From the NCBI GenBank assembly GCA_051362555.1, contig CM120640.1, positions 29,593,967-29,657,966 of the forward strand: 64,000 nucleotides of DNA, in the 5' to 3' direction. The DNA comes from Lingula anatina. Taxonomy: Eukaryota > Animalia > Brachiopoda. The position numbers were made by a program, and so were the translations under genes. Shown piece by piece: positions 1 through 59,415 of the stretch. The stretch's first letter is position 1; each line of letters opens with the position of its first letter. The notes beneath the pieces were generated by a model, which saw nothing but the letters and a program-made list of their open reading frames with translations, ran no database searches and had not been told where the DNA came from.

Positions 1-3000
1 CATCTTGCAGAGGTAGTAAGGAGAACTCTTGTATGGGTATATATTGTTTTGATCAATTTCCCATACACATGACACTTAAAAAAAAAGACTCAGATAACTG
101 ATCAGCTTATCACAGATTTTTATTGTTGTTAAACATCATTTGTACAAATTTCAGAAATATTGGACTAGATTTGACAAAAATATTAACGTTTAACTATTAT
201 AAGTCATAAAATATCCCAGTCTTTTCAGTGTAATTTTCAGTTCTCCCAAATATATTGTTCAAAAAACACTTTTTATTCAATACAGACAACTGATCAGCTT
301 ATCTCTGATTTTTGTTGTAGTTAAGCATCATTTGTACAAATTTCAGAAATATAGGACAAGATTTGACAAAATTATTAACGTTTAACTATTTTAAGGCCTG
401 GGATTTACCAGTCTTTTCAGTGTAATTTTCAGTTCTCCCAAATATATTGTTCCAAAAAACACTTTTTATTAGACACAGTCATCTGATCAGCTTATCTCAG
501 ATTTTTGTTGTTGTTAAGCATTATTTGTACAAATTTCAGAAATATTGGACAAGATTTGACAAAATTATTAATGTTTAACTATTTTAAGTCATAAAATATC
601 CCAGTCTTTTCAGTGTAATTTTCAGTTCTCCCAAATATATTGTTCCAAAAAACACTTTTTATTCAATACAGACAACTGATCAGCTTATCTCTGATTTTTG
701 TTGTTGTTAAGCATCATTTGTACAAATTTCAGAAATATAGGACAAAATTTGACAAAATTATTAACGTTTAACTATTTTAAGGCCTGGGATTTTCCAGTCT
801 TTTCAATGTAATTTTCAGTTTTCCTAAATATGTTTTCCCAAAAAACACTTTTTATTACACACAGACAACTGATCAGCTTATCACAGATTTTTGTTGTAGT
901 TAAGCATCATTTGTACAAATTTCAGAAATATAGGACAAAATTTGACAAAATTATTAACGTTTAACTATTTTAAGGCCTGGGATTTGCCAGTCTTATCAGT
1001 GTAATTTTCAGTTCTCCCATATATATTGTTCCAAAAAGCACTTTTTATTAGACACAGTCAACTGATCAGCTTATCTCAGATTTTTGTTGTTGTTAAGCAT
1101 CATTTGTACAAATTTCAGAAATGTTGGGCAAGATTTGACAAAATTAACGTTTAACTATTTTAATTAAGTCACTGAATTTGTCATTCTTTTCAAATGTAAT
1201 TTTCAGTCCTTTCAGTTATATTGTTCTTGTTTCAGAGTACCCTCACCATGAAAAAGCTGAAAAGGCAGGCAGTGAAAGATACCACCAAGAGCAGCACTGT
1301 GTCTTCTCCATGTGTACAATACATGATATTTGGCAAGATTTAGGGCCTTGTTGAGTATTGTGATAACAACAACCCCTTCCAGAAAGGAGTAATCTGCATC
1401 TTGCAGAGGTAGTAAGGAGAACTCTTGTATGGGTATATATTGTTTTGATCAATTTCCCATACACATGACACTTAAAAAAAAAGACTCAGATAACTGATCA
1501 GCTTATCACAGATTTTTATTGTTGTTAAACATCATTTGTACAAATTTCAGAAATATTGGACTAGATTTGACAAAAATATTAACGTTTAACTATTATAAGT
1601 CATAAAATATCCCAGTCTTTTCAGTGTAATTTTCAGTTCTCCCAAATATATTGTTCAAAAAACACTTTTTATTCAATACAGACAACTGATCAGCTTATCT
1701 CTGATTTTTGTTGTAGTTAAGCATCATTTGTACAAATTTCAGAAATATAGGACAAGATTTGACAAAATTATTAACGTTTAACTATTTTAAGGCCTGGGAT
1801 TTACCAGTCTTTTCAGTGTAATTTTCAGTTCTCCCAAATATATTGTTCCAAAAAACACTTTTTATTAGACACAGTCATCTGATCAGCTTATCTCAGATTT
1901 TTGTTGTTGTTAAGCATTATTTGTACAAATTTCAGAAATATTGGACAAGATTTGACAAAATTATTAATGTTTAACTATTTTAAGTCATAAAATATCCCAG
2001 TCTTTTCAGTGTAATTTTCAGTTCTCCCAAATATATTGTTCCAAAAAACACTTTTTATTCAATACAGACAACTGATCAGCTTATCTCTGATTTTTGTTGT
2101 TGTTAAGCATCATTTGTACAAATTTCAGAAATATAGGACAAAATTTGACAAAATTATTAACGTTTAACTATTTTAAGGCCTGGGATTTTCCAGTCTTTTC
2201 AATGTAATTTTCAGTTTTCCTAAATATGTTTTCCCAAAAAACACTTTTTATTACACACAGACAACTGATCAGCTTATCACAGATTTTTGTTGTAGTTAAG
2301 CATCATTTGTACAAATTTCAGAAATATAGGACAAGATTTGACAAAATTATTAACGTTTAACTATTTTAAGGCCTGGGATTTACCAGTCTTTTCAGTGTAA
2401 TTTTCAGTTCTCCCAAATATATTGTTCCAAAAAACACTTTTTATTAGACACAGTCATCTGATCAGCTTATCTCAGATTTTTGTTGTTGTTAAGCATTATT
2501 TGTACAAATTTCAGAAATATTGGACAAGATTTGACAAAATTATTAATGTTTAACTATTTTAAGTCATAAAATATCCCAGTCTTTTCAGTGTAATTTTCAG
2601 TTCTCCCAAATATATTGTTCTAAAAAACACTTTTTATTAGACTCAGATAACTGATCAGCATATCACAGATTTTGATTATTGTTAAGCATCATTTCTACAA
2701 ATTTCAGAAATATAAGACAAAATTTGACAAAATTATTAATGTTTAACTATTTTAAGGCCTGGGATTTGCCAGTCTTTTCAATGTAATTTTCAGTTTTCCC
2801 AAATATGTTGTCCAAAAAACACTTTTCATTACACACAGACAACTGATCAGCTTATCACAGATTTTTGTTGTTGTTAAGCATCATTTGTACAAATTTCAGA
2901 AATATAGGACAAAATTTGACAAAATTATTAACGTTTAACTATTTTAAGGCCTGGGATTTGCCAGTCTTTTCAGTGTAATTTTCAGTTCTCCCATATATAT

Positions 3001-6000
3001 TGTTCCAAAAAGCACTTTTTATTAGACACAGTCAACTGATCAGCTTATCTCAGATTTTTGTTGTTGTTAAGCATCATTTGTACAAATTTCAGAAATGTTG
3101 GGCAAGATTTGACAAAATTAACGTTTAACTATTTTAATTAAGTCACTGAATTTGTCATTCTTTTCAAATGTAATTTTCAGTCCTTTCAGTTATATTGTTC
3201 TTGTTTCAGAGTACCCTCACCATGAAAAAGCTGAAAAGGCAGGCAGTGAAAGATACCACCAAGAGCAGCACTGTGTCTTCTCCATGTGTACAATACATGA
3301 TATTTGGCAAGATTTAGGGCCTTGTTGAGTATTGTGATAACAACAACCCCTTCCAGAAAGGAGTAATCTGCATCTTGCAGAGGTAGTAAGGAGAACTCGT
3401 GTATGGGTATATATTGTTTTCCAGATGACAGTTATAGGTAATTTGCAACCTCTTACACAAACAACCTCAAACCATCACATTTGCTGTTTACATTCAGAGT
3501 AAATAATACATTGCAATATTGAAATATTTGTTTTGGTTAATTCTCACTCTTCTGATGATCAATTTCCCATACATGTGACACTTAAAAAAAAAGACTCAGA
3601 TAACTGATCAGCTTATCACAGATTTTTATTGTTGTTAAGCATCATTTGTACAAATTTCATAAATATTGGACTAGATTTGACAAAATTATTAACGTTTAAC
3701 TATTTTAAGTCATAAAATATCCCAGTCTTTTCAGCGTAATTTTCAGTTCTCCCAAATATATTGTTCCAAAAAACAATTTTCATTAGACACAGTCAATTGA
3801 TCAGCTTATCTCAGATTTTTGTTGTTGTTAAGCATCATTAGTACAAATTTCAGAAATATAGGACAATAGTTGACAAAATTATTAACGTTTAACTATTTCA
3901 AGTCCTGCGAATTCCCAGTCTTTTCAATGTAATTTTTGGTTTTCGCAAATATATTGTCCTAAAAAACACTTTTTATTCAATACAGACAACTGAACAGCTT
4001 ATCTCTGATTTTTGTTGTTGTTAAGCATCATTTGTACAAATTTCAGAAATATAGGACAAAATTTGACAAAATTATTAACGTTTAACTATTTTTAGACCTG
4101 GTATTTTCCAGTCTTTTCAATGTAATTTTCAGTTTTCCCAAATATGTTGTCCCAAAAAACACTTTTCATTACACACAGACAACTGATCAGCTTATCACAG
4201 ATTTTTGTTGTTGTTAAGCATTATTTGTACAAATTTCAGAAATATTGGACAAGATTTGACAAAATTATTAATGTTTAACTATTTTAAGTCATAAAATATC
4301 CCAGTCTTTTCAGTGTAATTTTCAGTTCTCCCAAATATATTGTTCTAAAAAACACTTTTTATTAGACTCAGATAACTGATCAGCTTATCACAGATTTTTA
4401 TTATTGTTAAGCATCATTTGTACAAATTTCAGAAATATTCCACCAGATTTGACAAAATTATTAATGTTTAACTATTGTAAGGTCTGGGTTTTGCCAGTCT
4501 TTTCATTGTAATTTTCAGTTTTCCCAAATATGTTGTCCCAAAAAACACTTTTCATTAGACACAGACAACTGATCAGCTTATCACAGATATTTATTGTTGT
4601 TAAGCATCATTTGTACAAATTTCATAAATATTGGACTAGATTTGACAAAATTATTAACGTTTTACTATTTCAAGTCCTGCGAATTCCCAGTCTTTTCAGT
4701 GTAATTTTCAGTTCTCCCAAATATATTGTTCCAAAAAACACTTTTCATAAGACACAGTCAATTGATCAGCTTATCTCAGATTTTTGTTGTTGTTAAGCAT
4801 CATTTGTACAAATTTCAGAAATATAAGACAAAATTTGACAAAGTTATTAACGTTTAACTATTTTAAGGCCTGGGATTTGCCAGTCTTTTCAATGTAATTT
4901 CAGTTTTCCCAAATAGGTTGTCCAAAAAAAAACACTTTTCATTACACACAGACAACTGATCAGCTTATCACAGATTTTTGTTGTAGTTAAGCATCATTTG
5001 TACAAATTTCAGAAATGTTGGACCAGACTAGACAAAATTATTAACGTTTAACTATTTTAAGGCCTGGGATTTGCCAGTCTTTTCAGTGTAATTTTCAGTT
5101 CTCCCATATATATTGTTCCAAAAAGCACTTTTTATTAGACACAGTCAACTGATCAGCTTATCTCAGATTTTTGTTGTTGTTAAGCATCATTTGTACAAAT
5201 TTCAGAAATGTTGGGCAAGATTTGACAAAATTAACGTTTAACTATTTTAATTAAGTCACTGAATTTGTCATTCTTTTCAAATGTAATTTTCAGTCCTTTC
5301 AGTTATATTGTTCTTGTTTCAGAGTACCCTCACCATGAAAAAGCTGAAAAGGCAGGCAGTGAAAGATACCACCAAGAGCAGCACTGTGTCTTCTCCATGT
5401 GTACAATACATGATATTTGGCAAGATTTAGGGCCTTGTTGAGTATTGTGATAACAACAACCCCTTCCAGAAAGGAGTAATCTGCATCTTGCAGAGGTAGT
5501 AAGGAGAACTCGTGTATGGGTATATATTGTTTTCCAGATGACAGTTATAGGTAATTTGCAACCTCTTACACAAACAACCTCAAATCATCACATTTGCTGT
5601 TTACATTCAGAGTAAATAATACATTGCAATATTGAAATATTTGTTTTGGTTAATTCTCACTCTTCTGATGATCAATTTCCCATACATGTGACACTTAAAA
5701 AAAAAGACTCAGATAACTGATCAGCTTATCACAGATTTTTATTGTTGTTAAGCATCATTTGTACAAATTTCATAAATATTGGACTAGATTTGACAAAATT
5801 ATTAACGTTTAACTATTTTAAGTCATAAAATATCCCAGTCTTTTCAGCGTAATTTTCAGTTCTCCCAAATATATTGTTCCAAAAAACAATTTTCATTAGA
5901 CACAGTCAATTGATCAGCTTATCTCAGATTTTTGTTGTTGTTAAGCATCATTAGTACAAATTTCAGAAATATAGGACAATAGTTGACAAAATTATTAACG

Positions 6001-9000
6001 TTTAACTATTTCAAGTCCTGCGAATTCCCAGTCTTTTCAATGTAATTTTTGGTTTTCGCAAATATATTGTCCTAAAAAACACTTTTTATTCAATACAGAC
6101 AACTGAACAGCTTATCTCTGATTTTTGTTGTTGTTAAGCATCATTTGTACAAATTTCAGAAATATAGGACAAAATTTGACAAAATTATTAACGTTTAACT
6201 ATTTTTAGACCTGGTATTTTCCAGTCTTTTCAATGTAATTTTCAGTTTTCCCAAATATGTTGTCCCAAAAAACACTTTTCATTACACACAGACAACTGAT
6301 CAGCTTATCACAGATTTTTGTTGTTGTTAAGCATTATTTGTACAAATTTCAGAAATATTGGACAAGATTTGACAAAATTATTAATGTTTAACTATTTTAA
6401 GTCATAAAATATCCCAGTCTTTTCAGTGTAATTTTCAGTTCTCCCAAATATATTGTTCTAAAAAACACTTTTTATTAGACTCAGATAACTGATCAGCTTA
6501 TCACAGATTTTTATTATTGTTAAGCATCATTTGTACAAATTTCAGAAATATTCCACCAGATTTGACAAAATTATTAATGTTTAACTATTGTAAGGTCTGG
6601 GTTTTGCCAGTCTTTTCATTGTAATTTTCAGTTTTCCCAAATATGTTGTCCCAAAAAACACTTTTCATTAGACACAGACAACTGATCAGCTTATCACAGA
6701 TATTTATTGTTGTTAAGCATCATTTGTACAAATTTCATAAATATTGGACTAGATTTGACAAAATTATTAACGTTTTACTATTTCAAGTCCTGCGAATTCC
6801 CAGTCTTTTCAGTGTAATTTTCAGTTCTCCCAAATATATTGTTCCAAAAAACACTTTTCATAAGACACAGTCAATTGATCAGCTTATCTCAGATTTTTGT
6901 TGTTGTTAAGCATCATTTGTACAAATTTCAGAAATATAAGACAAAATTTGACAAAGTTATTAACGTTTAACTATTTTAAGGCCTGGGATTTGCCAGTCTT
7001 TTCAATGTAATTTCAGTTTTCCCAAATAGGTTGTCCAAAAAAAACACTTTTCATTACACACAGACAACTGATCAGCTTATCACAGATTTTTGTTGTAGTT
7101 AAGCATCATTTGTACAAATTTCAGAAATGTTGGACCAGACTAGACAAAATTATTAACGTTTAACTATTTTAATTAAATCACCGAATTTGTCATTCTTTTC
7201 AAATGTAATTTTCAGTCCTTTAAGTTATATTGTTCTTCTTTCAGAGTACCCTCACCATGAAAAAGCTGAAAAAGCAGGCAGTGAAAGATACCACCAAGAG
7301 CAGCACTGTGTCTTCTCCATGTGTACAATACATGATATTTGGCAAGATTTAGGGCCTTGTTGAGTATTGTAATAACAACAACCCCTTCCAGAAAGGAGTA
7401 ATCTGCATCTTGCAGAGGTAGTAAGGAGAACTCTTGTATGGGTATATATTGTTTTCCAGATGACAGTTATAGGTAATTTGCAACCTCTTACACAAACAAC
7501 TTCAAATCATCACATTTGCTGTTTACTTTCAGAGTAAATAATACATTGCAATATTGAAATATTTGTTTTGGTTAATTCTCACTCTTCTGATGATCAATTT
7601 CCCATACACTTGACACTTAAAAGAAAAGACTCAGATAACTGATCAGCTTATCACAGATTTTTATTATTGTTAAGCGTCATTTGTACAAATTTCAGAAATA
7701 TTCCACCAGATTTGACAAAATTATTAATATTTAACTATTGTAAGGTCTGGGTTTTGCCAGTCTTTTCAATGTAATTTTCAGTTTTCCCAAATATGTTGTC
7801 CCAAAAAACACTTTTCATTAGACACAGACAACTGATCAGCTTATCACAGATTTTTATTGTTGTTAAGCATCATTTGTACAAATTTCATAAATATTGGACT
7901 AGATTTGACAAAATTATTAACGTTTTACTATTTTAAGTCATAAAATATCCGTCTTTTCAGTGTAATTTTCAGTTCTCCCAAATATATTGTTCCAAAAAAC
8001 ACTTTTTATTCAATACAGACAACTGATCAGCTTATCTCTGATTTTTGTTGTTGTTAAGCATCATTTGTACAAATTTCAGAAATATAGGACAAAATTTGAC
8101 AAAATTATTAACGTTTAACTATTTTAAGGCCTGGGATTTTCCAGTCTTTTCAATGTAATTTTCAGTTTTCCCAAATATGTTGTCCCAAAAAACACTTTTT
8201 ATTACACACAGACAACTGATCAGCTTATCACAGATTTTTGTTGTAGTTAAGCATCATTTGTACAAATTTCAGAAATATAGGACAAGATTTGACAAAATTA
8301 TTAACGTTTAACTATTTTAAGGCCTGGGATTTACCAGTCTTTTCAGTGTAATTTTCAGTTCTCCCAAATATATTGTTCCAAAAAAACACTTTTTATTAGA
8401 CACAGTCATCTGATCAGCTTATCTCAGATTTTTGTTGTTGTTAAGCATTATTTGTACAAATTTCAGAAATATTGGACAAGATTTGACAAAATTATTAATG
8501 TTTAACTATTTTAAGTCATAAAATATCCCAGTCTTTTCAGTGTAATTTTCAGTTCTCCCAAATATATTGTTCTAAAAAACACTTTTTATTAGACTCAGAT
8601 AACTGATCAGCATATCACAGATTTTGATTATTGTTAAGCATCATTTCTACAAATTTCAGAAATATAGGACAAAATTTGACAAAATTATTAACGTTTAACT
8701 ATTTTAAGGCCTGGGATTTGCCAGTCTTTTCAATGTAATTTTCAGTTTTCCCAAATATGTTGTCCCAAAAAACACTTTTCATTACACACAGACAACTGAT
8801 CAGCTTATCACAGATTTTTGTTGTTGTTAAGCATCATTTGTACAAATTTCAGAAATATAGGACAAAATTTGACAAAATTATTAACGTTTAACTATTTTAA
8901 GGCCTGGGATTTGCCAGTCTTTTCAGTGTAATTTTCAGTTCTCCCATATATATTGTTCCAAAAAGCACTTTTTATTAGACACAGTCAACTGATCAGCTTA

Positions 9001-11082
9001 TCTCAGATTTTTGTTGTTGTTAAGCATCATTTGTACAAATTTCAGAAATGTTGGGCAAGATTTGACAAAATTAACGTTTAACTATTTTAATTAAGTCACT
9101 GAATTTGTCATTCTTTTCAAATGTAATTTTCAGTCCTTTCAGTTATATTGTTCTTGTTTCAGAGTACCCTCACCATGAAAAAGCTGAAAAGGCAGGCAGT
9201 GAAAGATACCACCAAGAGCAGCACTGTGTCTTCTCCATGTGTACAATACATGATATTTGGCAAGATTTAGGGCCTTGTTGAGTATTGTGATAACAACAAC
9301 CCCTTCCAGAAAGGAGTAATCTGCATCTTGCAGAGGTAGTAAGGAGAACTCGTGTATGGGTATATATTGTTTTCCAGATGACAGTTATAGGTAATTTGCA
9401 ACCTCTTACACAAACAACCTCAAATCATCACATTTGCTGTTTACATTCAGAGTAAATAATACATTGCAATATTGAAATATTTGTTTTGGTTAATTCTCAC
9501 TCTTCTGATGATCAATTTCCCATACATGTGACACTTAAAAAAAAAGACTCAGATAACTGATCAGCTTATCACAGATTTTTATTGTTGTTAAGCATCATTT
9601 GTACAAATTTCATAAATATTGGACTAGATTTGACAAAATTATTAACGTTTAACTATTTTAAGTCATAAAATATCCCAGTCTTTTCAGCGTAATTTTCAGT
9701 TCTCCCAAATATATTGTTCCAAAAAACACTTTTCATTAGACACAGTCAATTGATCAGCTTATCTCAGATTTTTGTTGTTGTTAAGCATCATTAGTACAAA
9801 TTTCAGAAATATAGGACAATATTTGACAAAATTATTAACGTTAAATATTTCAAGTCCTGCGAATTCCCAGTCTTTTCAATGTAATTTTTGGTTTTCGCAA
9901 ATATATTGTCCTAAAAAACACTTTTTATTCAATACAGACAACTGATCAGCTTATCTCTGATTTTTGTTGTTGTTAAGCATCATTTGTACAAATTTCAGAA
10001 ATATAGGACAAAATTTGACAAAATTATTAACGTTTAACTATTTTTAGGCCTGGTATTTTCCAGTCTTTTCAATGTAATTTTCAGTTTTCCCAAATATGTT
10101 GTCCCAAAAAACACTTTTCATTACACACAGACAACTGATCAGCTTATCACAGATTTTTGTTGTTGTTAAGCATTATTTGTACAAATTTCAGAAATATTGG
10201 ACAAGATTTGACAAAATTATTAATGTTTAACTATTTTAAGTCATAAAATATCCCAGTCTTTTAAGTGTAATTTTCAGTTTTCCCAAATATATTGTTCTAA
10301 AAAACACTTTTTATTAGACTCAGATAACTGATCAGCTTATCACAGATTTTTATTATTGTTAAGCATCATTTGTACAAATTTCAGAAATATTCCACCAGAT
10401 TTGACAAAATTATTAATGTTTAACTATTGTAAGGTCTGGGTTTTGCCAGTCTTTTCAATGTAATTTTCAGTTTTCCCAAATATGTTGTCCCAAAAAACAC
10501 TTTTCATTAGACACAGACAACTGATCAGCTTATCACAGATATTTATTGTTGTTAAGCATCATTTGTACAAATTTCATAAATATTGGACTAGATTTGACAA
10601 AATTATTAACGTTTTACTATTTCAAGTCCTGCGAATTCCCAGTCTTTTCAGTGTAATTTTCAGTTCTCCCAAATATATTGTTCCAAAAAACACTTTTCAT
10701 AAGACACAGTCAATTGATCAGCTTATCTCAGATTTTTGTTGTTGTTAAGCATCATTTGTACAAATTTCAGAAATATAAGACAAAATTTGACAAAGTTATT
10801 AACGTTTAACTATTTTAAGGCCTGGGATTTGCCAGTCTTTTCAATGTAATTTCAGTTTTCCCAAATAGGTTGTCCAAAAAAACACTTTTCATTACACACA
10901 GACAACTGATCAGCTTATCACAGATTTTTGTTGTAGTTAAGCATCATTTGTACAAATTTCAGAAATGTTGGACCAGACTAGACAAAATTATTAACGTTTA
11001 ACTATTTTAATTAAATCACCGAATTTGTCATTCTTTTCAAATGTAATTTTCAGTCCTTTAAGTTATATTGTTCTTCTTTCAG

Positions 11083-11310
11083 AGTACCCTCACCATGAAA
11101 AAGCTGAAAAAGCAGGCAGTGAAAGATACCACCAAGAGCAGCACTGTGTCTTCTCCATGTGTACAATACATGATATTTGGCAAGATTTAGGGCCTTGTTG
11201 AGTATTGTGATAACAACAACCCCTTCCAGAAAGGAGTAATCTGCATCTTGCAGAGGTAGTAAGGAGAACTCTTGTATGGGTATATATTGTTTTCCAGATG
11301 ACAGTTATAG
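11083..11310 (+). pseudogene. Decayed integrase HHCC zinc-binding exon of a Ginger-like element (representative copy; repeated as the satellite spacer at ~1236, 3211, 5323, 7245, 9163)
   Basis: Bounded by ttctttcAG and ATAG|GTAATT. Reads ...QYMIFGKI*GLVEYCDNNNPFQK here and QYMICGKI*DIVKYCANSNPFQK...LHL...VWVY...VIG in the 56-58 kb copies. This matches the integrase pattern YYWPGMxKDVxxYCxxCxxCQ...LHPI...W...DLIG, and AGC/TTC are each one substitution from TGC. Confidence 0.68.
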
Positions 11311-12437
11311 GTAATTTGCAACCTCTTACACAAACAACTTCAAATCATCACATTTGCTGTTTACTTTCAGAGTAAATAATACATTGCAATATTGAAATAT
11401 TTGTTTTGGTTAATTCTCACTCTTCTGATGATCAATTTCCCATACACTTGACACTTAAAAGAAAAGACTCAGATAACTGATCAGCTTATCACAGATTTTT
11501 ATTATTGTTAAGCGTCATTTGTACAAATTTCAGAAATATTCCACCAGATTTGACAAAATTATTAATATTTAACTATTGTAAGGTCTGGGTTTTGCCAGTC
11601 TTTTCAATGTAATTTTCAGTTTTCCCAAATATGTTGTCCCAAAAAACACTTTTCATTAGACACAGACAACTGATCAGCTTATCACAGATTTTTATTGTTG
11701 TTAAGCATCATTTGTACAAATTTCATAAATATTGGACTAGATTTGACAAAATTATTAACGTTTTACTATTTCAAGTCCTGTGAATTCCCAGTCTTTTCAG
11801 TGTAATTTTCAGTTCTCCCAAATATATTGTTCCAAAAAACACTTTCATTAGACACAGTCAATTGATCAGCTTATCTCAGATTTTTTTTGTTGTTAAGCAT
11901 CATTTGTACAAATTTCAGAAATATAGGACAAAATTTGACAAAATTATTAACGTTTAACTATTTTAAGGCCTGGGATTTGCCAGTCTTTTCAATGTAATTT
12001 TCAGTTTTCCCAAATAGGTTGTCCAAAAAAAACACTTTTCATTACACACAGACAACTGATCAGCTTATCACAGATTTTTGTTGTAGTTAAGCATCATTTG
12101 TACAAATTTCAGAAATGTTGGACCAGACTAGACAAATTTATTAACGTTTAACTATTTTAATTAAGTCACAACCTCAAATCATCACATTTGCTGTTTACAT
12201 TCAGAGTAAATAATACATTGCAATATTGAAATATTTGTTTTGGTTAATTCTCACTCTTCTGTTGATCAATTTCCCATACACTTGACACTTAAAAAAAAGA
12301 CTCAGATAACTGATCAGCTTACCACAGATTTTTATTATTGTTAAGCATCATTTGTACAGATTTCAGAAACACTGGACAAGATTTGTCAAAATTATTAATG
12401 TTTAACTATTTTAAGTCACAGTGTTTTCAGTGTAATT

Positions 12438-12600
12438 ATTCAATTCAATTCAATTTATTTCTGTACTGGTACATAGATTGTCATGACCTTATACAATATG
12501 ATATACTAATGACCATACAATACAGTTAGTGCATTACCATTTCTCTAGTTAGTATTATGTTGCCTAGCCATTTGTGAATGAATAAATAATCTTTATATAA
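12438..12600 (-). mobile_element. Short 3' end of a LINE or SINE inserted in the decayed end of the satellite
   Basis: The + strand ATTCAATTCAATTCAATTTATT reads AATAAA followed by an (ATTGA)n tail on the minus strand. It interrupts a satellite monomer. Confidence 0.5.
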
Positions 12601-14999
12601 TTATTAGATTTCTCAAATATATCATCCAAAGAAAATACTTTTCATTAGACACAGACAAGTGATCAGTTCATTACAGATTTTTACTGTTGCTAAGCATTAT
12701 TTGTACAAATTTCAGAAATATCTGACAAGATTTGACAAAATTATTAATGTTTAAATATTTTAAGCAATTCGATTTGCCAGTCTTTTTAATGTAATTTTCA
12801 GTTTTCTCAAATATATTGTCTCAAAAAACACTTTTCATTAGACACATTCAACTGATCAGCTTACCTCAGATTCTAAAAGTTATTATATTATTAAAGTTGT
12901 TAATCTTAATTGACCTGATAGGCCCTGTGTTGTTTTCAGAGAATGGCAATAGATACATCCTCACTCTGTCGGACTACTACACTAAGTGGACAGAGACATT
13001 CCCAATTCTTTCTAATAATGCAGCAAGTGTTGCCAAGGTCCTTTCCTCTATAGTTGACGGTTATGTTCATTTCACTGAAATGTAATCTGGAGGATTCATT
13101 GTGAAAGCAGTAAATAATTATACATTTATAATTGTAAGTCAAATATAATTCATTTGAAAGACTATGTATTTAAAAGTAATTTGTATCACTATGCCGTTGA
13201 CATTCTTGCAAGTGACAAGTGTCTGTTTACTCCATCCTAAATAACACATGCTTTTTTTGAAAATGAATAGCTCTGTGCATATGTTATATTGTTAGGTTGA
13301 AGAAAATGTGTGAAAACATTAAATAGGTTGGAAATTTTTTGGATGAATCACATATTTGTCTCATGGATTGGAAATCTGTGGAAGATACTGTAGTACAGAT
13401 GGTAATAATGAAATTAGTTTAATAGGTGGTATTAAACTTAATTAATTCAATACCTGCCACACCTGTCGCTAGACAAATATATGCTTCATACAAAATGTTT
13501 GTTGTTTAACCTATATTTATGTGGTAAAGTTAAAGTGATGTTTTCTTTTTTTCTCAGAATGGGTGCCCCAAAAAAATTGCTGACTGACCAGGGATCGGAA
13601 TTTTGTAATGAGTTAAATGTCTCAAAATTTGTAATATGAATTAAGAATTAGTAAGTCTTTGGCATAAATTGGAAACTGGAAAGGATACAATCACCACCCC
13701 TTTATTTATGCCAAATATGATAAAGGTTTTACGGTGAATATTGGCTTCAATTTTATTGGCATGCCTGTGAATGTGTAACTGATTACCAGTGATATCTATT
13801 TCTGTACTAATCAGTTTAGAGCATGTGTAATATTGGAAGCCTACTCTGCTCAATTATAACCATTTTTATTATCAATGTAAACTGTTTAATACAGTAGAAA
13901 ATGACTAAGGATTATGTTTTTAAATATAATTTTCATACATGGGCAATTCTTTGGAATTGCCCATTTTTTTATATCCCTTTCACAGCCAGTGAAGAACACA
14001 ACACTCCTTTAGTTTCTCCCAGATTTTTATTTCAGCGTCACTGCTCCTACAACTGCTACAGCTACTACTACTGCTCCTCCTATTACTACTACTGAAGGGC
14101 TATGGAAGGCCCTCCTTTATTGTGGTCTCTATACAATGGGATACTTTAGAACTATGTATATACGCTAATGGTTTACATATAGGTGAGCGGCAGAAGGCCA
14201 AAATTTTCAGATTTAGTGTCCCCTTTATACACAGACCTGAATTATATATCATTTGAAAGCTCAGAGTCTGCTGGTCAAAGTTAGCCATGATGTGGAAATG
14301 GCAATTGCCTGCGTAACCATGGAAACGGACAAAATCCAAGATGGCCGCCTGTTTTTTTGCATTTTTTCTAAGAATACAAATCATTGATAAACATAACTAA
14401 AACATTGTGTGTCATATGGCCTTTACATGTTTTGTGATGAGGGAGCTTATGGGCTAAAAAAAACACCATGCCAGAATTTCAAGATGGCCGCCGTTGTTCA
14501 TGAAAAATTGGTCAAATTTTCTCTTTTTGTTCCCAATCTTTACATATAAAATCAAAATTGTAATGTCCACATAGTTATTTTGGTGTGGATTATACAAAGT
14601 AGACATATTATCATTTTTATATGGTATTTGGTTAAATTTGGATGAGGTTAAAGCAGTCAATTTTAAATATTCAACATGGCCGCCCTGAAATGCAAATTTC
14701 CATGAAGTGGGCTTTGCTTCACTTTAATTATTAAATAAATCATTTTTATTACCTAGCTCACACACAAGTTTGTGCTAGATGTTAAATACTACATGATGCC
14801 TCACACAACCTCTTCAAGATGGCCACCATTATCAAAATGTCCGCCTTATGGTGTGTTTTTTTTTACTAATTTGGATTGTTCACATCTAAAAGGATGAAAT
14901 TATTCGCAAAGTATTCTTATATATGTGGTTATGAATAAAAAATAATGAAAGGCTACGTTATATTACTACAACTGTTCACTTACAATAAAAAAATTGGGG

Positions 15000-15004
<5 letters not shown>

Positions 15005-15068
<64 letters not shown>
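15005..15068. repeat. (AT)n microsatellite
   Basis: Perfect AT run of about 32 units. Confidence 0.97.
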
Positions 15069-15072
<4 letters not shown>

Positions 15073-15875
15073 TAATGCATGTTAAAGTTACCAGTGTGAT
15101 ATATGTTGTAAACCTTTGCATCTATTGTCACGATAAAAGATATTCCAGAAAATCTGCAAATATTTAGACAAAAAATTATTTATATTTTTTGATCTGTCAA
15201 ATTTGATGCATTTGCTAATTCTAGGATGTGTGCCATATTAAACATTATTATTATTATCAAGAACTACAGATATTGATCGCATTTTATCCTTTATTCATCT
15301 TAGAAATATCAATCATTAAATGCAAAAAACTTAGTTACAACAAATGCATGCATCTCATTTCTTATAGCATTTCTTTACAGCATACACCATTTTCATTCTT
15401 TACTTTGAACTGTTTAAAAAGATAATAACATGCATTCATAGAGAGATACACATATTACATCAATACCAATATCTGGACAAAGATATACATATTATGAATG
15501 ATTGGAAGTGCATCAATACATATACCCAACTGCAAATCCATGTTGCATTTCTTTGGTCAACATTTATTAAGTTGACTTCTCAACAGAGAAAGAAAAACAT
15601 CAATACATTATTTTTAGCATTTATTACCTCAAAATTTCATCTCTGTACATTACAAATGCCCATATACACTCACACACACACCTTAAAATGCTTGTGCCTG
15701 TGTTACCCATCGCAAACTGAGTATCACTTTCTATATACTCACACACCCCTAGAAACAAGGGCACTCATGCTCTCAGTGTGTTCTTTATCAACTTCTGTAC
15801 ATGCATTCTGATAAAAAAAAGTATATTACACACACTCAAGAATACACAGATACCCTCTCATGAGTGACCTGTCAT

Positions 15876-16570
15876 TCATACACTTTCATCAAAATCATCA
15901 TCATCATCAATATCGTTACATGTCTCCAGGGAATATGGATTCTGGCAGACGTCACTACCTTGGCATGGACAGATTTCTGTACATGGAAGGCCACTGTGAT
16001 AACATGAACAGTTGTTACAGTTGCTCCTGAGAGTACAAGAGCATACCATTTCCCTGAGCAATTCAGACGCCATTATCCCTTTAAAGTAAACAGGTACTAA
16101 CTTGTCGTCTTCCCTTTCCCACCCATGCTGAAGTGGAGATCCAAGATGTGGATTTGCGACATGCGAGTTGCACCAGATCTTTGTTTGCCAATGAGCTCTC
16201 CTCGCATGTTCAATGAAACTGGCTTCACATGGAGGCAGTTTGGCAATTGCCTGGTCTTTCCTGTTGGCAATTTTAAAGCGTAGTTGATTAAGATCCTTGT
16301 GTGATGATATGTCCTTCTCTCCTGGATCATATAGAAGAGCCACCAATTTTCGTGCTGCATCAATGGCACCATCTTCTGGGAATTTTCCAATCCTTTCAAG
16401 GTCTTGGAAACTCCCTGGTCCTTTCCTTTGAATTACCTTCAAGACTCCTTTCTTGCCAATTCCAAAGAAGGAAGAAGTAGAGTCGCACCCAGTAACGGCA
16501 TGGACAGCAGGGAGAATCTTGCATAACTGTGGACCAAGGGATGAGCAAAGTGTGTGTACTGGTAATAGGG
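15876..16570 (-). pseudogene. C-terminal fragment of an Academ-type transposase (XPG-like H3TH region plus Cys-rich/CXC zinc finger)
   Basis: LPVHTLC..LG...HAVTGCDSTSSFFGIGKK, LPPCEASFIEHARRAHWQTKIW, PLQHGWE and CSC..C..CSC..GLPCTEICPC..CQN. The N-terminal transposase region is missing because the element end lies only ~150 bp upstream. Confidence 0.8.
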
Positions 16571-19199
16571 TCAGTACATGCAATACAAAAGTGACTATTA
16601 GTGATGTGTACATGGAATAAAGCAGTCAGACGGAGACAGATGTCTGAAGCTTGCAAGGCTGAGGTGAGATGGACATGTAAGATCTCAGAGTTATAACTTT
16701 TCATACTAGGAGTGCCACACTATTAAATTGTCTTATTGAGTTATGATATCCCTATAACCATGGAGTGGACTGAACAACTTTCAAGGAGGGCAGCAATTGT
16801 CCATGAAAAGTCTTACTCTTTGCATCAATAGAAGCAAATATTTGGAAAGATGTGCATAACGTCTCCCAGTGCAAAAATTGAATTGACGAAATACATATTT
16901 ACCCATTTTAACATCAAATATTTTATTTCTGTAGCTGTTAGATGACCTTCTGAAAGAGTGGGGAATCAAACACAAGATTACAGCTGTGCACCACCCACAG
17001 ACAAATGAGTTAGATGAGCGGTTTTACCAAACACTCAAAGTGTCACTCTCAAAAGTCACTAATGAGAGGTAGAATGACTGTGAAAGGTATATCTGGAGCA
17101 GTGACCTTTGCATATCGTACAGCACAAAACTGCGCCACTGGATACTGTTCTTTTTTCCTGATGTTCAACAGGGAGGCTCGGCTGCCATGCAAGGTAAATA
17201 AATAGTATGCATACAGATGCATTATGCAAGAACACTGTCCTTGTGAGCTTGTTGGTGTCCTATATTTGTTCCAAAACATCATTTGAGCAGACTAAGGCCT
17301 GAGCTATGTTCAAATCATGGCATGATAACAAGGCATATTAAGATAGCAGACCCAAAAGTAATTACTTTGGGAATATGGGGGTTTATAAGGGTAATTTACT
17401 CCTAATATTTTATACTCTAAAAAATAGCATTTTTAGGTGTATATTCTGGCCAGACTTTAAGGACTGTTGATTATATTTTGGCATAAAAAACAGCCCAAGG
17501 CCCCTTAAATATAAAATGCATTTTGCTTTTATGATCATAGGGATGATGATTCTTGATCTTGTCTACCATTGCATTGCTGGCATATTATGTACAAATGAAA
17601 TTCTTATATTTCATCAAAACAATAATGAGTGTATTGGCACCTTAAGATGTGGATTAATTAATAAACATAATTGATTTTGTTCATTTTTGATCATTAATTT
17701 CTGATTTTGCAGTTGAGGTACATAGAGAAAGAAGTGACAATGCCCAGCAAAGAAGACTGTAATGTGCAGATGGAATTCCAACACCAGCAACTTACTGAGT
17801 TACACGCTAAGATATGCATGTGGGACTTACATGTTCAACTTCCTCTGAATATGCTATTAATTTCTCAAGTTTTTTTTTTTTTTTATTTTGGTCCATGCAA
17901 GATTAAAGAGTAGCCCCTTACATTGAGCAATATTTGGTTTCACACAAGTTCTATAGAAAAAAAGATGTCACACGTAATCTGTTCATAAAAATATTGCAAC
18001 ATTTAGAAAAATTTGTAAAAATGTGTCAACAGAATAGTGATGGCAGCAGGTGCAGTATTGTAATTTCTGGGGCTAACTTCATTTATCCTGCTGGCTTTGT
18101 GCACAGTATAAGTTTTTATGGCAAAAACTTGAACTTTGCTTCTCCCATTTATACTGAAACATACCCTATTTAATTCAATTTCTATAAACTATATATTTTC
18201 AGTACAAGAAGAAAGTTGAAAAGTCTCAAGCAAAGTACAAGAGATAGTATGAGGCAAAGAAAGGAAAGAATGTAGTAGTATTTCAATTAGAAAGTGGAAT
18301 GAAAGTTCTGAAGAAATAACTTTCTTAAGGCTGGGTGGCAGACAGTTTGGATCAGTGTTAAAGTCAAACTTTGTAAGATATGTCTTCTGAACAGTAATAT
18401 GTGCATTCAGCCATTTGCATTGTGGTTCCAGTATCTACTTTATATCTGCTTAGAGGCCTATCATAGAGGCCTATCATATACTAGCTATAATTGATACAAT
18501 TACTGCAAATATATCCAATTCAGCACATGCTTATCTGTATATTTATGACCTTGATGAAGTGTAAATGTCGAAAGGAATTTGTTTATGAAATGGATTTGAA
18601 TACTTTTTATTAATCATACCAGTGCAAAGGATATTATGGACAATATATTTGAGGTGTTGGATATAAACTATAAACCACTGCTGTTTAGAAATCTTTTGAG
18701 ACTGATCACTGTACCAAGGACAGCATAAACAAAGACTGAATATAACAAACCACTAGTATCAAAGGACTGAAACATTTCCTTTGATCTTACTTAGTTTACA
18801 CTAGCAGGTGGGAAAGGCAGTTTGCATCAGTAGGTTTTCAAATTTGTTTGATATTAATTGGATGTTATCTGTTTGTACCCTATGATTGCTTGTGTTCAAT
18901 TTAATTGTAAATTGCATATATTGTTCATTCCAACTACATGTAATTCTAATGAATAGACATTGTTTTTGTACTGTGTTTCACAATAAATCTTTGTAAATTA
19001 ACCATTTTTTCAATCTTGGAATGTTCTTTGTTTGTGTAACATTGTAGTAACAATCAAGTACCTGATAAACATAGCAGTAATTGTCATCTGACAAGTCATA
19101 AGCATATTTTACATAAAAATTTAATACCTAAGATCTACTATGACAGACGATACATACATTAGTAAGGTGTAGTCAAGGGCTAATTTTGGCAGGTGGCAT

Positions 19200-19830
19200 T
19201 GTCTATCTATTTTTGCAGCTCATTTTTATATACAGACACTGTAAATGTCTGTATATATTCTGATTGGTCTGTTTGTTTGTGCCGTCGTTGTTGCTGAAGT
19301 TCACCCCATAACTTTCAAACTGTATTTTTGTTTTACTTTTAATTAACCGAGTGGCTTTTTTGGTAAAGAGGCAGGTTGCTTTTGAAAATCCCCATGGTTG
19401 GTTTACATTTATGATAATTATTCTGTTTTTTTTTTTTTTTTTTTTTTTGCACAGTTTATGTGGCATTCAACCCATAATTCTTGAAGCGTATTTTTGTTTT
19501 ACTTTTATTTCACTGAGTGGCTTTGTTTGGTAAAGAGACAGGTTGGTTTGGAAAATCAGCATGATTGGTTTAAATTTACGGTAATTATTCTGTTTTTTTT
19601 TTTTTTTTAATTTTTTTGCACAATTTTTGTGATGTTTGCCCCATAACTGCCGTACTGTATTTTTGTTTCACTCTAGATGTAGTGAGTGGCTTTGTTGGGT
19701 AAAGAGCCAGGTTACTTTGAAAATAGCCAAGATATGTTTACATTTATGGTAATTATTTTTTTTTTTTTGTGTGAATTTTTTTATTTTTCACATATTAGCA
19801 TTTTCAGTGGCTTTTATATCCCATGGAACT
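19200..19830. repeat. ~167-bp tandem repeat (about 3.3 copies), Helentron/HINE-like internal array
   Basis: CCCATAA..TATTTTTGTTT..GAGTGGCTTT..GGTAAAGAG..CAGGTT recurs at ~19304, 19471 and 19640. It is preceded by a GTCTGTTTGTTTGT/GTCGTTGTT micro-repeat. The Helentron assignment is inference. Confidence 0.65.
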
Positions 19831-20965
19831 GAATCATTTGGTAGCTTTTCAATGTCCCTGTTACCTGTAGTAAATAATGTAAGAGGGTAAGAGTGATTAT
19901 GCTGCTTTTAAGTATTATGTAGCAGTGCATCAAAATTGGCCAAAACATTATTTGGTGCACTTTTTTTTCTGTGTAGTGTCTGAACGTTTGTCAGCTTTGC
20001 TGCCTTGTTTGCTGTATGGTGTCTGTATATTTGCCAGCTTTGCTGTCTAGTTTAATAGAAATGACCAATATTATATGATCTGCTTACTTAAACCTGGAAG
20101 TAAAACTGATCTGACAATAAATTATGGTCATATTTTACATGTAACTTAAATAATGAATTACGATCTACCATGGTTACTTTGTTCAAGAACTAATTTTGGC
20201 AGGTGGCATTCCTATTTTTAGCTCGTTTTTGAAGAGAAATCAGCATTAATATATGATCTTCTGACTTGAACCTAGAAGTAAAATTGATCTGACAATACGC
20301 CATAGCCATATTTTACATATAAATAAAATACTGTAGTAACTAAGGTCTACCGAGACAGACGCTTGTAGACTGCTTCTACTTCTGTTTTAGCAAAACAACT
20401 TTAAATTTTGGGTTTTCATATCAAAATATCAAACCACGAATTTGGAGGAAAAGCTGGAAGACCTCCTCCTTATATAGAGAGGTAAAAATGCAAAGCAAAT
20501 ATAACCTAAAATCATTAAGCTCTGAAATGAAAAGGTGTTTGGAGATTATGATTAAAAAGGAAGTCACCTAAAAGTTAGCATTTTCCAGGAACGCGTTAGC
20601 AGCGGCATTTAACAAAACTGGCAAGGTGAACTTGAGGAGACGTCTGAGCTAAGAAACTGTAATTCATTAAAATGCATTCACAAAGAAAAATAGCTGGATG
20701 TAATGGATGATGAAAACAAAAACTCATAGTCGTTTTCGCGTTTGTGCATATAAACTTTACATTCATACAGATTGATACATAAACATTTATCCTCACTGGT
20801 GTCACAATGAAATTCAGACAAACAAGAACGTCTTTGCTGCGCCGTTTATATCCGAGGGCCGAGACACCACTCAATTGATGCACAGTTCCATGCGCGTAAT
20901 TTTTCGTCGACCCGCCCTCCTGCGTTATTGTTACTTTCTCAGTGGTTGCCCTCACTCCTCACTAA

Positions 20966-21260
20966 GGCCCCATTCAAAACAGATGATCCGAGTACTAACT
21001 GATCCGCCGACTTAATATGGCCGACAACTCTTCAAAAGAGGTGCCGCTGTTTCTGGATGGTCTCCCCGCCTCCACATGCGCCGTCGCTGCAGGGGCCTAG
21101 CAATTAAACCTCGGAGCCAAGATTTGATCCATTTCATGGCGCTTGTGGAGGCGGGGAGGTCATTAGGAATCAGCGACATCTCTAGAACTTTTGAAGTGTG
21201 GTCAGCCATATTTAGTCGGCGGTTCAGATAGTACTGGGATCATATATTCTGAATGGCGCC
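20966..21260. mobile_element. MITE with ~58-bp imperfect TIRs, PIF/Harbinger-like
   Basis: Left end GGCCCCATTCAAAACAGATGATCCGAGTACTAACTGATCCGCCGACTTAATATGGC versus reverse complement of right end GGCGCCATTCAGAATATATGATCCCAGTACTATCTGAACCGCCGACTAAATATGGC. Flanks are TAA and TTA. Confidence 0.8.
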
Positions 21261-55265: not shown

Positions 55266-55589
55266 TTAATTAATAAGATACATAAAAGTGTTTGTTTGAC
55301 ATATCCTGCATCTTTACAACATTGTTAGTTGATTTTGTAAAAATTATGGTAAACTTGTTATCGTGTATTATGTTATAAAGTTTCAAAAATGGAAATAAAC
55401 TCATATCTTTGCAGTTTGTCAGATTCAATCATTCACTATGTTCAGAATCTCAGAATGGAAGAAATTGAACATTTAACACTGCTCTATTGATATTTTTCCC
55501 ATCTCATCAATTTTTTTAGTTGATCATATAAAAATGGTAGTAAACTGTTTATTTTGTTTTATGTTAAAAATTGTTAAAAATGAAAAAAT

Positions 55590-56400: not shown

Positions 56401-56429
56401 CTGTACATTTGACAGCTTTGCTGCCTTGT

Positions 56430-59233
56430 TTCAGTTATATTGTTCTTTTTCCTGAGTACCCTTACCATGAAAAAGCAGGCAGTAAAAGACAGCATTAAGA
56501 GCAGCACTATGCCTTATCCATGTGTACAATACATGATATGTGGCAAGATTTAGGACATTGTCAAATATTGCGCTAACAGCAACCCATTCCAGAAGCCCAT
56601 TGTAAGGAGTAATCTGCATCTGGCATTGATAGTAAGGAGAAGCCTTGTATGGGTTTATGTTGTTTTGCATATGACAGTTATAGGTAATTTGCAACCTCCT
56701 ACACAAACAACCTCAAATCATCACATTTGCTGTTTTCTTTGAGAGTAAATAATACATTGCAATATTGAAATACTTGTTTCTGTTAACTCTCACTCTTCTG
56801 GTTATCAATTTCCAATAAATTTGACACCTAAAAAAGGACACAGACAACTGATCAGTTTGTCACAGATTTTTATTGTTGTTAAGCATCATTTGTACAAATT
56901 TCAGAAACATTGGACACAATTTGACAAATTTATTAACGTTTAACTATTTTAAGTAATGGGATTTTCCAGTCTTTTCAGTGTAATTGTCAGTTTTTTCAAA
57001 TATTGTTCTTTTTCCAGAGTACCCTTCCCATGAAAAAACAGGCAGTAAAAGACAGCACCAAGAGCAGCACTACCCTGTATGTCTTATCCATGTGTACAAT
57101 ATATGATATGTGGCAAGATTTAGGACATTGTCAAATATTGTGCTAACAGCAACCCATTCCAGAAACCCATTGTAAGGAGTAATCTGCATCTGGCATTGAT
57201 AGTAAGGAGAAGTCTTGTATGGGTATATATTGTTTTCCTGATAACAATTAATAGGTAATTTGCTAGCTCCTACACAAACAAACTCAAATCATAACATTTG
57301 CTGTTTTCTTTTAGAGTAAATAATACATTGCAATATTGAAATATTTGTTTTGGTTAACTCTCACTCTTCTGGTTATCAATTTCCAATAAATTTGACACTT
57401 AAAAAAGGACACAGACAACTGATCAGTTTGTCACAGATTTTTATTGTTGTTAAGCATCATTTATTCAAATTTCAGAAATATTGGACAAGATTTGACAAAA
57501 TTATTGTTGTTTAACTATTTTAAGTAATTGAATTTGCCAGTCTTAATTTCAGTGTAATTTTCAGTTTTTCCAAATATAGTGTCCCAAAAAACACTTTTCA
57601 TTAATTAGACACAGTTGACTGATTAGCTTATATCAAAATATTACAGTTGTTAAACTTAATATGTACAATTTTCAGAAACACTGGACTTGATTTGACAAAA
57701 TTATTAACATTTAACTATTTTAAGTAATGGGATTTGCCGGTCTTTTCAGTGTAATTTTCAGTTTTCCCAAATATAGTGTACCAAAAAACACTTTTCATTA
57801 GACACAGACGACTGATCAGCTTATCTCAGATTATTACAGTAGTTAAGCTTAAAATGTACAATTTTCAGAAACGTACTAGATTTGACAAAATTATTAACGA
57901 GGGATTTGCCAGCTTTTCAAAGTGATTTTCAGTTTTTTCAGTTATATTGTTCTTTTTCCAGAGTTCCCTTACAATGAATTAGCAGGCAGTGAAAGATACC
58001 ATCATGAGCAGCACTATGTCTTATCCATGTGTACAATACATGATATGTGGCAAGATTTAGGACATTGTCAAATATTGTGCTAACAGCAACCCATTCCAGA
58101 AACCCATTGTAAGGAGTAATCTGCATCTGGCATTAATAGTAAGGAGAGGTCTTGTATGGGTTTATATTGTTTTCCAAATGACAGTTATAGGTAATTTGCA
58201 ATCTCCTACACAAGCAAACTCAAATCATCATATTTGCTGTTTTCTTTGTGAGTAAACAATACATTGCAATATTGAAATATTTGTTTTGGTTAATTCTCAC
58301 TCTTCTGATTATCAATTTCCAATAAACTTGACACTTAAAAAAAGACACAGACAACTGATCAGCTGATCACAGATTTTTATTATTGTTAAGCAACATTTGT
58401 GCAAATTTCAGAGACACTGGACAAGATTTGACAAAATTATTAACATTTAACTATTTTAAGTAATGGAATTTTTTTGCATGAATCACATATTTGTCTCATG
58501 GACTGGAAATCTGTGGAAGGTAGTAAAGATGGAAATAAATGAAATTAGGTTAATGGGTGGTTTTAAACTTTATTAAGTTAATACCCATCACACCTGTCTC
58601 TAGACAAATATACGCTTCATACAAAAATGTTTTTTGTTTAACCTATATTTTTGTTGTTAAGTTAAAGTGATGTTTTCTTTTTTCTCAGAATGGGTGCCCC
58701 CAAAAAACTGCTGACTGACCAGGGATTGGAACTGGATACAATCACCACCCCTTTATGTTCTGCCAAATATGATAAAGGTTTTAGGGTGAATATTGGCTTC
58801 AATCTTGTTGGCATGCCTGTGAATGTGAATCTATTTCTGTACCTATTAGTTTAAATGACGTAATATTGAAGGCCTACTCTGCTCAATTATAACCATTTTT
58901 ATTATCAATGTAAACTGTTTAATGCAGTAGACACTGTCAACTGATCAGCTTATCTCAGATTATTACAGTAGTTAAGCTTACTATGTAGGATTATGTTTTT
59001 AAATATGATTTTCATATATGGGCAATTCTTTGGAATTTAATATATCATTAAACATGGTATATGTGGTGTGGACTGAACAACTTTCAAGGAGGGCAGTGAT
59101 ATCCATGAAAAGTCTTACTCTGTGCATCAATAAAAGCAGATATTTGGAAAGATGAGCTTAATTTCTCCCAATGCAAAAATTAAATTGCCCAAATATTTAC
59201 CCATTTTTGCATTCAATATTTTTTCTGTAGCTG
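56430..59233 (+). mobile_element. Second, deleted copy of the Ginger-like element: 3 HHCC-exon copies, about five 193-bp-family monomers, the MGAPKKLLTDQG exon and flanking introns
   Basis: Exon copies at ~56456-56683, 57018-57254 and 57962-58190. 58470-59037 aligns with 13335-13958, and 59065-59233 aligns with 16760-16937. Confidence 0.88.
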
Positions 59234-59415
59234 GTAATATTGTTTTTGATAGAAAGCTCCAAAGCATGGCATCAGCAACGCATGAGTAACGCTATAATAT
59301 GAGTAAGTGTAGAGAGGAATAGGTGTAATGTGCATGTATACCGTAAAGTGCCATACCGCACATTACTTAATTTCCTAAAATATACTAATAACTTCAACAC
59401 CGTACTCTATTCCAG

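What the first reader, a model, noticed from the sequence alone, without database searches (positions are those of the whole stretch)
1..12875. A satellite whose higher-order unit is one integrase exon plus its intronic repeats: a satellite growing inside a Ginger transposase gene
Seen: the spacer that punctuates the 193-bp array has an AG acceptor and an ATAG|GTAATT donor. It translates to a decayed integrase N-terminal HHCC region, and the array ends immediately before the exon carrying the next integrase segment (G-P...NRYIL...DYYTKW). The exon end ATA-G joins G|GC-CCT to give I-G-P in the expected phase. Inference: the exon and its intronic 193-bp repeats were amplified at least 7 times, producing over 12 kb of satellite within a transposase gene. 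TE-derived satellites are known; an exon+intron higher-order unit from an intron-containing integrase is something I do not recognise as described.
Basis: partly seen in the sequence, partly recalled or inferred. Interest (0 to 1): 0.8.

Follow-up and report, generated by a model that had tools for sequence, protein, structure and literature searches.

The report
Satellite carrying a spliced repeated exon
A 193-base satellite repeat in an animal genome is interrupted every 1.4 to 2.1 kb by a 230-base segment that RNA reads from related copies join copy to copy at its splice signals, and the array is fused to the remains of an intron-containing Ginger-type transposase gene, but whether the repeated exon itself came from that gene remains unproven.

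Summary

About 55 monomers of 193 bp are broken by 7 copies of a 375-bp spacer, in uneven units of 1.4-2.1 kb. RNA reads from related copies elsewhere (2 of 3 studies) run from three GT donors in the spacer to its AG acceptor, so it is a spliced exon. Its spliced chains have stops in all frames.

Downstream lie four decayed exons of a Ginger1-type integrase, and a second, diverged array-plus-tail copy sits at 56-59 kb.

The spacer has no significant similarity to integrase zinc-finger regions, only weak hints in one frame. The proposed ATAG|GCCCT join is refuted: related genomic copies read KVVGKWEMVGIDLIGP without a break, and here a monomer is fused into that exon. Exon and monomer draw hundreds to thousands of times more contig depth than the transposase tail.

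Best reading: an abundant exon-bearing satellite, built like mouse Dxz4, fused to a dead Ginger core. Integrase origin of the exon is about 30% likely.

The parts
1..12908 (+). Locus A array: about 55 whole or partial 193-bp monomers interrupted by spacer copies; runs off the left end of the window
1..50 (+). 3' part of a spacer exon copy (A0) with the same 136-bp deletion as A1
1236..1446 (+). Spacer exon A1; a 136-bp deletion removes the ATAG|GT donor and most of the following intron segment
3210..3437 (+). Spacer exon A2 (228 nt, AG acceptor, GT donor)
5323..5550 (+). Spacer exon A3 (identical to A2)
7245..7472 (+). Spacer exon A4 (98% to A2)
9163..9390 (+). Spacer exon A5 (identical to A2)
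11083..11310 (+). Spacer exon A6 (99.7% to A4)
12168..12306 (+). Exon-less remnant of the spacer (post-donor intron segment only)
12836..12911 (+). Last partial monomer, running directly into the integrase exon; likely a deletion junction, shared by several genomic copies
12909..13060 (+). Ginger1-type integrase exon, 5'-truncated, with the first catalytic Asp (IDLIGP...YYTKW)
13558..13612 (+). Integrase exon with the second Asp (MGAPKKLLTDQG)
16935..17193 (+). Integrase exon with the catalytic Glu region (HPQTNELDER); one stop and one frameshift
18203..18316 (+). Decayed integrase C-terminal exon, upstream of the GPY/F region
   Evidence: 30 bits, 0 of 300 shuffles
56455..58472 (+). Locus B array: three exon copies (56455-56683, 57018-57254, 57962-58190), 85-88% to the A copies and 91-92% to each other, with one, about four and a partial monomer behind them
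58464..59236 (+). Locus B transposase tail: matches 13329-13958 and 16761-16940 at 84-96%; lacks the IDLIGP exon and the 2.8-kb block inserted in A

Best explanation
This is an exon-bearing satellite whose 230-nt spacer is joined copy to copy at its splice sites in RNA from related loci; it is likely a non-coding, genome-wide repeat family, and here it is fused, likely by deletion, to the decayed core of a Ginger1-type transposase gene. Mechanism: the basal unit is about 570 bp (exon, 140 bp of intron, one 193-bp monomer whose T-rich end forms the next acceptor), as seen at locus B [shown]. The monomer expanded inside this unit, and blocks of exon plus 4-9 monomers were then copied by unequal exchange, giving uneven 1.4-2.1 kb units and 3.8- and 6-kb super-repeats [anatomy shown, mechanism inferred]. 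Transcription into such arrays yields RNA in which the monomers are spliced out [joints shown for the family, not for this locus]. The array-transposase fusion is old, being shared by loci A and B that differ by 11-16%, and was copied a few times [shown by the two loci and contig depth; how it spread is unknown].
For:: in run X12, 46 of 251 laid reads (9, 25 and 12) leave the exon at 58108, 58138 and 58190 and continue with the first letters of the exon; in X15, 6 of 97 do so at 58138. One search shows GT after all three places and AG before the exon start. X12 and X15 are strand-biased in the sense that fits these sites, and depth falls after each donor; six joined copies have stops in every frame for all 8 copy-donor pairs tried (longest open stretch 83 codons); in DNA run X3, 6244 contigs laid on 1361 bp, with summed depth 1.9e5-8.9e5 on the exon, up to 3.5e6 on the monomer and 4e2-1.8e3 on the tail; only 89 contigs laid on 1124 bp of tail A; the 160 bases before each acceptor are monomer sequence; monomer runs into codon ATT at 12909, while other copies have in-frame coding letters there. 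Locus B joins monomer to the tail at a different place.
Against: Three weak hints, all in the same reading frame of the B copies, suggest the exon once coded for an integrase zinc-finger region. No RNA read was 99% or more alike to B3 and the junction letters are not of the locus A type, so splicing of this array is not shown. Back-splicing of a single exon would give the same joint. X18 (705 reads) showed no such joint among its 6 listed rows; 264 loose-end rows were hidden. Summed contig depth is not a copy number. The left end of the array and the rest of the genome were not available.
Confidence: 0.55

Rival explanations
1. One reading: the exon is a heavily decayed zinc-finger exon of a Ginger-type transposase (this family or an older one), and its exon-intron unit grew into a major satellite that still splices.
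For: Array and integrase share strand and order at both loci. Exon GC is 0.38-0.42, like the integrase exons (0.42-0.45) and unlike monomer and introns (0.29-0.31). One frame of B copies aligns without gaps as T-x7-Y-x3-G-x3-DI-x2-Y-x7-QK. That frame has one stop in B1, the best profile score (B3: 11 of 300 shuffles; mean score 1, 3 and 4 of 60 shuffles for B1, B2, B3) and 8 synonymous of 23 A-versus-B differences (p 0.13).
Against: None is significant after allowing for three frames; A copies are at shuffle level (137 and 146 of 300; 87 of 300). Both His, the Trp and both Cys of the motif are missing in all copies, while neighbouring exons keep their motifs (30-106 bits). The natural downstream exon already holds the V-x-x-x-W-x-x-V-G segment that the spacer's end was supposed to supply. 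No RNA joint from the exon to an integrase exon was listed.
Confidence: 0.3
2. The spacer is a piece of unrelated DNA (another element or a host exon) captured into a pre-existing 193-bp satellite; its splicing is incidental read-through in host transcripts, with the T-rich monomer supplying the acceptor.
For: The 375-bp cassette sits inside a monomer, and about 20 bp of monomer recur on both sides. Many RNA reads run on into unrelated sequence (51-77% of laid reads). The 60-bp satellite in the same window has likewise taken a 200-bp piece of a neighbouring retroelement into 10 units.
Against: The same anatomy follows from tandem duplication of the last 193 bp of an intron. Three donors are used with one exact acceptor, and the RNA is strand-biased. 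This rival differs from the best explanation mainly in order of events, which was not resolved.
Confidence: 0.12
3. The long array is partly an assembly artefact of near-identical units.
For: Exons A2, A3 and A5 are identical; no contig spans the array.
Against: Units carry different monomer strings, a second diverged locus exists, and contigs of an independent run show the 570-bp tandem (joint 58472 to 57944).
Confidence: 0.03

Closest known systems
Mouse Dxz4 macrosatellite (PMC3491370; passages read)
   Same: Large uneven monomers with an internal variable tandem repeat, and one short exon per monomer (163 nt) spliced copy to copy into a non-coding RNA.
   Different: Dxz4 is one X-linked array with a defined external promoter and CTCF sites. 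Here the family appears highly abundant and multi-locus, the intron is mostly a 193-bp satellite, three donors are used, and the array is fused to a transposase remnant. No sequence relation was tested or is expected.
Ginger1 DNA transposons (Bao et al. 2010, PMC2836005; abstract and parts 1-2 of 4 of the main text read, figures not seen)
   Same: Gypsy-like DDE integrase split by GT-AG introns, no reverse transcriptase beside it; groups with Ulp1- and OTU-bearing proteins in a tree.
   Different: Decayed and 5'-truncated; no terminal inverted repeats or target duplication found; H2C2, YPYY, GPY/F and protease domains not demonstrated; closest protein only 42-46% identical.
Satellites expanded from tandem repeats inside transposable elements (Vondrak et al., PMC7004042, abstract only; review PMC12692304, passages)
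   Same: A short repeat attached to an element expands into long arrays.
   Different: Those cases are LTR-retrotransposon UTRs, Helitrons and MITEs. The review's main text has no occurrence of 'exon', 'intron' or 'spliced', and here the element origin of the repeat is not shown.
Firre locus local repeats (PMC4820808; search listing only; exon detail recalled)
   Same: Non-coding RNA locus built from repeated exonic and intronic units (recalled).
   Different: Firre repeats are confined to one locus; function was not tested here.

Membership tests
Ginger1 transposon (tail at 12909-18316) | Gypsy-like DDE integrase core | tested here: met
   78, 52 and 106 bits against a profile of 34 Ginger-like proteins, 0 of 300 shuffles each; rve_3 E 1.2e-4, below the curated cut-off
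Ginger1 transposon (tail at 12909-18316) | Spliceosomal introns in the transposase gene | tested here: met
   Collinear coding blocks separated by AT-rich gaps with AG acceptors; other genomic copies show GT donors at 13061 and 13613. No spliced RNA joint was listed (7 and 4 reads laid).
Ginger1 transposon (tail at 12909-18316) | Groups with Ginger1 rather than LTR-retrotransposon integrases; no reverse transcriptase | tested here: met
   FastTree of 57 sequences (3 dropped for lack of the motif): inside the clade of RT-less, Ulp1/OTU-bearing proteins, support 0.81-0.88. RT/RNase H hits lie only at 40-41 kb.
Ginger1 transposon (tail at 12909-18316) | H2C2 zinc finger and YPYY motif upstream of the core | tested here: inconclusive
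   The spacer is not significantly similar; the natural 5' part is deleted here
Ginger1 transposon (tail at 12909-18316) | GPY/F motif and C-terminal OTU or Ulp1 domain | tested here: inconclusive
   Similarity ends about 15 residues before GPY/F; tblastn with Ulp1/OTU-bearing proteins gave no such hit above 28 bits
Ginger1 transposon (tail at 12909-18316) | 40-270 bp terminal inverted repeats with TGTNR ends and CCGG/CCGT target duplication | tested here: inconclusive
   No inverted pair found around locus B; one candidate 3' end at 59395 without a partner; the left end of A is outside the window
Dxz4-like spliced macrosatellite | One exon per higher-order unit, spliced copy to copy | tested here: met
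   Family-level RNA joints at three GT donors to the AG acceptor in 2 of 3 RNA runs; linear versus circular not resolved
Dxz4-like spliced macrosatellite | Internal variable tandem repeat within each unit | tested here: met
   4-9 monomers per unit at A, 1-4 at B
Dxz4-like spliced macrosatellite | Defined promoter, chromatin-organising role (CTCF) | not testable with these tools
   No chromatin data; the array start is outside the window
Transposon-derived satellite | Repeat present inside intact copies of the element | not testable with these tools

The most novel reading that the evidence does not exclude
A major satellite family of this animal was born from one exon-intron unit of a Ginger transposase gene; its many exon copies keep working splice sites, so the satellite removes itself from transcripts and yields multi-exon RNAs made of a transposase relic.
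Probability: 0.3. Interest if true: 0.72.

Novelty: new variant of a known kind. Interest (0 to 1): 0.46.

Why it matters
Satellite RNAs are usually treated as unspliced read-through. Here an apparently abundant invertebrate satellite carries its own exon and is spliced out around it, an architecture I found described only for single mammalian loci such as mouse Dxz4. It offers a test of whether splice signals help a satellite spread through transcribed DNA. If the exon proves to be of transposase origin, it would be a route from a coding exon-intron unit of a DNA transposon to a major satellite, which ten literature searches did not find described.

Tried and rejected
Word-indexed protein search with the IDLIGP exon: 17 candidates, none at E<=0.001. 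Pfam on 9 spacer frames: no integrase family, one unrelated weak hit. tblastn of 150 and then 120 integrases: spacer hits of 20-27 bits only, mostly out of position. Frameshift-aware profile, per-protein alignment against 205 N-terminal regions and 10 subfamily HMMs: nothing significant. An early idea that both Cys codons are one change away in B copies was weakened, because most reads carry a different letter at 58086. A repetitive protein from chained exons was rejected. Rfam on 3100-4400: one chance-level hit, E 0.94. Terminal repeats: none found. Language-model look-alikes of the spacer frame could not be obtained, so that test is open. No RNA holder was listed by index for 11000-19200. 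Earlier findings by sequence, by words and near this place: none.

Full report
What the array is. Tandem Repeats Finder gives a 193-bp period over 86-12160. BLAST finds 60 monomer rows in the window, 55 in 1-12.9 kb and 5 near 57-58 kb. The 45 full monomers of the main array average 90% identity. A 375-bp spacer interrupts the array 7 times. Its 228-nt core lies at 1236, 3210, 5323, 7245, 9163 and 11083, plus a fragment at 1-50; the first two carry a 136-bp deletion that removes the donor. Exon-to-exon spacings are 1974, 2113, 1922, 1918 and 1920. Monomer strings differ between units, and long matches at offsets of 1396, 3842 and 5953 show duplications at several scales. This is a nested, uneven higher-order array rather than one unit copied seven times.

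A second locus. At 56.4-59.2 kb the window holds three more exon copies, 85-88% like the A copies and 91-92% like each other, spaced 563 and 944 bp. They are followed by the same downstream sequence as locus A at 84-96% identity. The shortest unit, about 570 bp, is exon, 140 bp of intron and one monomer. The 160 bases before each acceptor align to the monomer itself, so the monomer supplies the pyrimidine tract. B1 is the exception: it follows other repeated DNA that resembles 19.5-20.05 kb.

The transposase. Four blocks downstream of array A (12909-13060, 13558-13612, 16935-17193, 18203-18316) score 78, 52, 106 and 30 bits in a frameshift-aware search with a profile of 34 Ginger-like proteins, with 0 of 300 shuffles reaching any of them. 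A fifth candidate at 17.7 kb did not score (156 of 300). In a tree of 57 sequences the element falls among proteins without reverse transcriptase that bear Ulp1 or OTU domains, with moderate support (0.81-0.88). These match Ginger1 as defined by Bao et al. (PMC2836005; abstract and parts 1-2 of 4 read, figures and supplements not seen). The nearest protein is 42-46% identical. No ends were found. It works like, and is likely, a dead Ginger1 copy; several defining features could not be shown.

IDLIGP is encoded without a break at 12909-12926. The last monomer aligns right up to this codon run. In two DNA runs from different studies, contigs of 771 and 795 bp, about 85% alike, continue upstream of 12909 with letters that read KVVGKWEMVG in frame, and a second variant reads VVGKWETVG. 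This is the usual Ginger sequence before the catalytic Asp (alignment). So the natural exon extends further 5', and here the satellite has been fused into it, likely by deletion. Other contigs carry the same fusion, so it exists in several copies.

Is the spacer an integrase exon? No Pfam integrase family matched 9 spacer frames. Against the N-terminal profile, A2 and A6 scored 11 bits (137 and 146 of 300 shuffles as good) and B1-B3 scored 12.7-13.4 (60, 34 and 25 of 300). Against 205 N-terminal regions and 10 subfamily HMMs, one frame of the B copies was borderline (mean score 1, 3 and 4 of 60 shuffles; best HMM 35 and 11 of 300), while A was not. The same frame has one stop in B1 and 8 synonymous of 23 A-versus-B differences against an expected share of 0.23 (p 0.13), and exon GC resembles the integrase exons. 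Against this, both His, the Trp and both Cys are absent in all copies although the neighbouring exons keep their motifs; a gene decaying as one piece should not look like that. I put integrase origin at about 30%.

The spacer is a spliced exon. RNA reads were laid on 57940-59300 at 80% likeness. In X12, 46 of 251 laid reads leave at 58108 (9), 58138 (25) or 58190 (12) and continue with the first letters of the exon; in X15, 6 of 97 do so at 58138. All three places are followed by GT and the exon start is preceded by AG. X18 laid 705 reads but showed no such row among its 6 listed; 264 rows were hidden. No such joint was among the 15 of 29 joints shown, and none of the 6 listed DNA loose ends matched. 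X12 and X15 are strand-biased in the matching sense. No read was 99% or more alike, and the junction letters are of the B type, so the RNA comes from other loci of the family. Back-splicing is not excluded, though X12 is a poly(A) library. Chains of six exons have stops in all frames for all 8 combinations tried, so the product is likely non-coding. The transposase tail drew almost no RNA (7 and 4 reads, no joints).

Abundance. In DNA run X3, summed contig depth was 1.9e5-8.9e5 on the exon, 1.9e6-3.5e6 on the monomer and 4e2-1.8e3 on the tail. The tool warns this is no copy number, but 6244 contigs against 89 shows the exon-monomer family is far commoner than its Ginger neighbour.

How it likely works. 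A 570-bp exon-intron unit became tandem; its last 193 bp expanded as a satellite; blocks of exon plus monomers were copied again. Transcription entering an array meets an acceptor supplied by the monomer and one of three donors, so the monomers are spliced away. At some point an array was joined to a Ginger core, and this composite was copied a few times. Anatomy and splice joints are shown; order of events, promoter and function are inferred or unknown.

Comparison with what is known. Mouse Dxz4 has the same architecture: uneven monomers with an internal tandem repeat and one 163-nt exon per monomer spliced copy to copy (PMC3491370, passages). Satellites growing out of repeats inside transposable elements are well known (PMC7004042, abstract; PMC12692304, passages). 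Multi-exon Ginger1 genes are known (PMC12863088, passages). Ten searches of the open library listed no paper whose title or abstract start describes a satellite built from a transposase exon and intron, or a satellite of Lingula. Subscription papers, Repbase entries and supplements were not seen. Earlier scan notes name the genome as the brachiopod Lingula; I did not check this.

Verdict. A new variant of a known kind: a spliced, exon-bearing satellite fused to a Ginger remnant. Interest 0.46; 0.72 if the exon proves to be of transposase origin (probability about 0.3).

Noticed in passing
window 41006-53038: The 59/60-bp satellite (41.2-52.8 kb) is punctuated by 10 further copies of a 190-225 bp piece of the neighbouring Gypsy-type pol remnant (41006-41219), 90-96% alike: a second array that took element coding DNA into its higher-order unit.
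   Followed up: partly
window 13958-16761: A 2.8-kb block present in locus A and absent from B lies in an integrase intron; it holds a 249-codon minus-strand frame (15876-16625) with a weak TCR/CXC hit (E 0.36), recalled as Academ-like.
   Followed up: partly
window 19300-20053 and 54994-56431: Diverged AT-rich repeats (167-bp and 43-bp units) downstream of tail A resemble, in direct orientation at 73-91%, the DNA upstream of exon B1; possibly the 5' region of the same composite element.
   Followed up: partly
window 58925-58987: A 60-bp monomer fragment sits in the intron after the TDQG exon in locus B but not in A.
   Followed up: no
window 20963-21263: A 300-bp imperfect inverted repeat, 72% between arms.
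   Followed up: no
window 60100-62600: Exons of a host gene with Cys-rich EGF-like repeats followed by cadherin-like repeats (read by eye).
   Followed up: no
window 63000-63980: Decayed Tc1/mariner-like transposase (read by eye; label recalled).
   Followed up: no
window 59448-59912: A 67-bp tandem repeat, 6.9 copies, 94% matches.
   Followed up: no
window 30784-31365 (+) and 39737-40255 (-): Open frames that look like the C-terminal ends of non-LTR retrotransposon proteins (label recalled; no informative Pfam hit).
   Followed up: no
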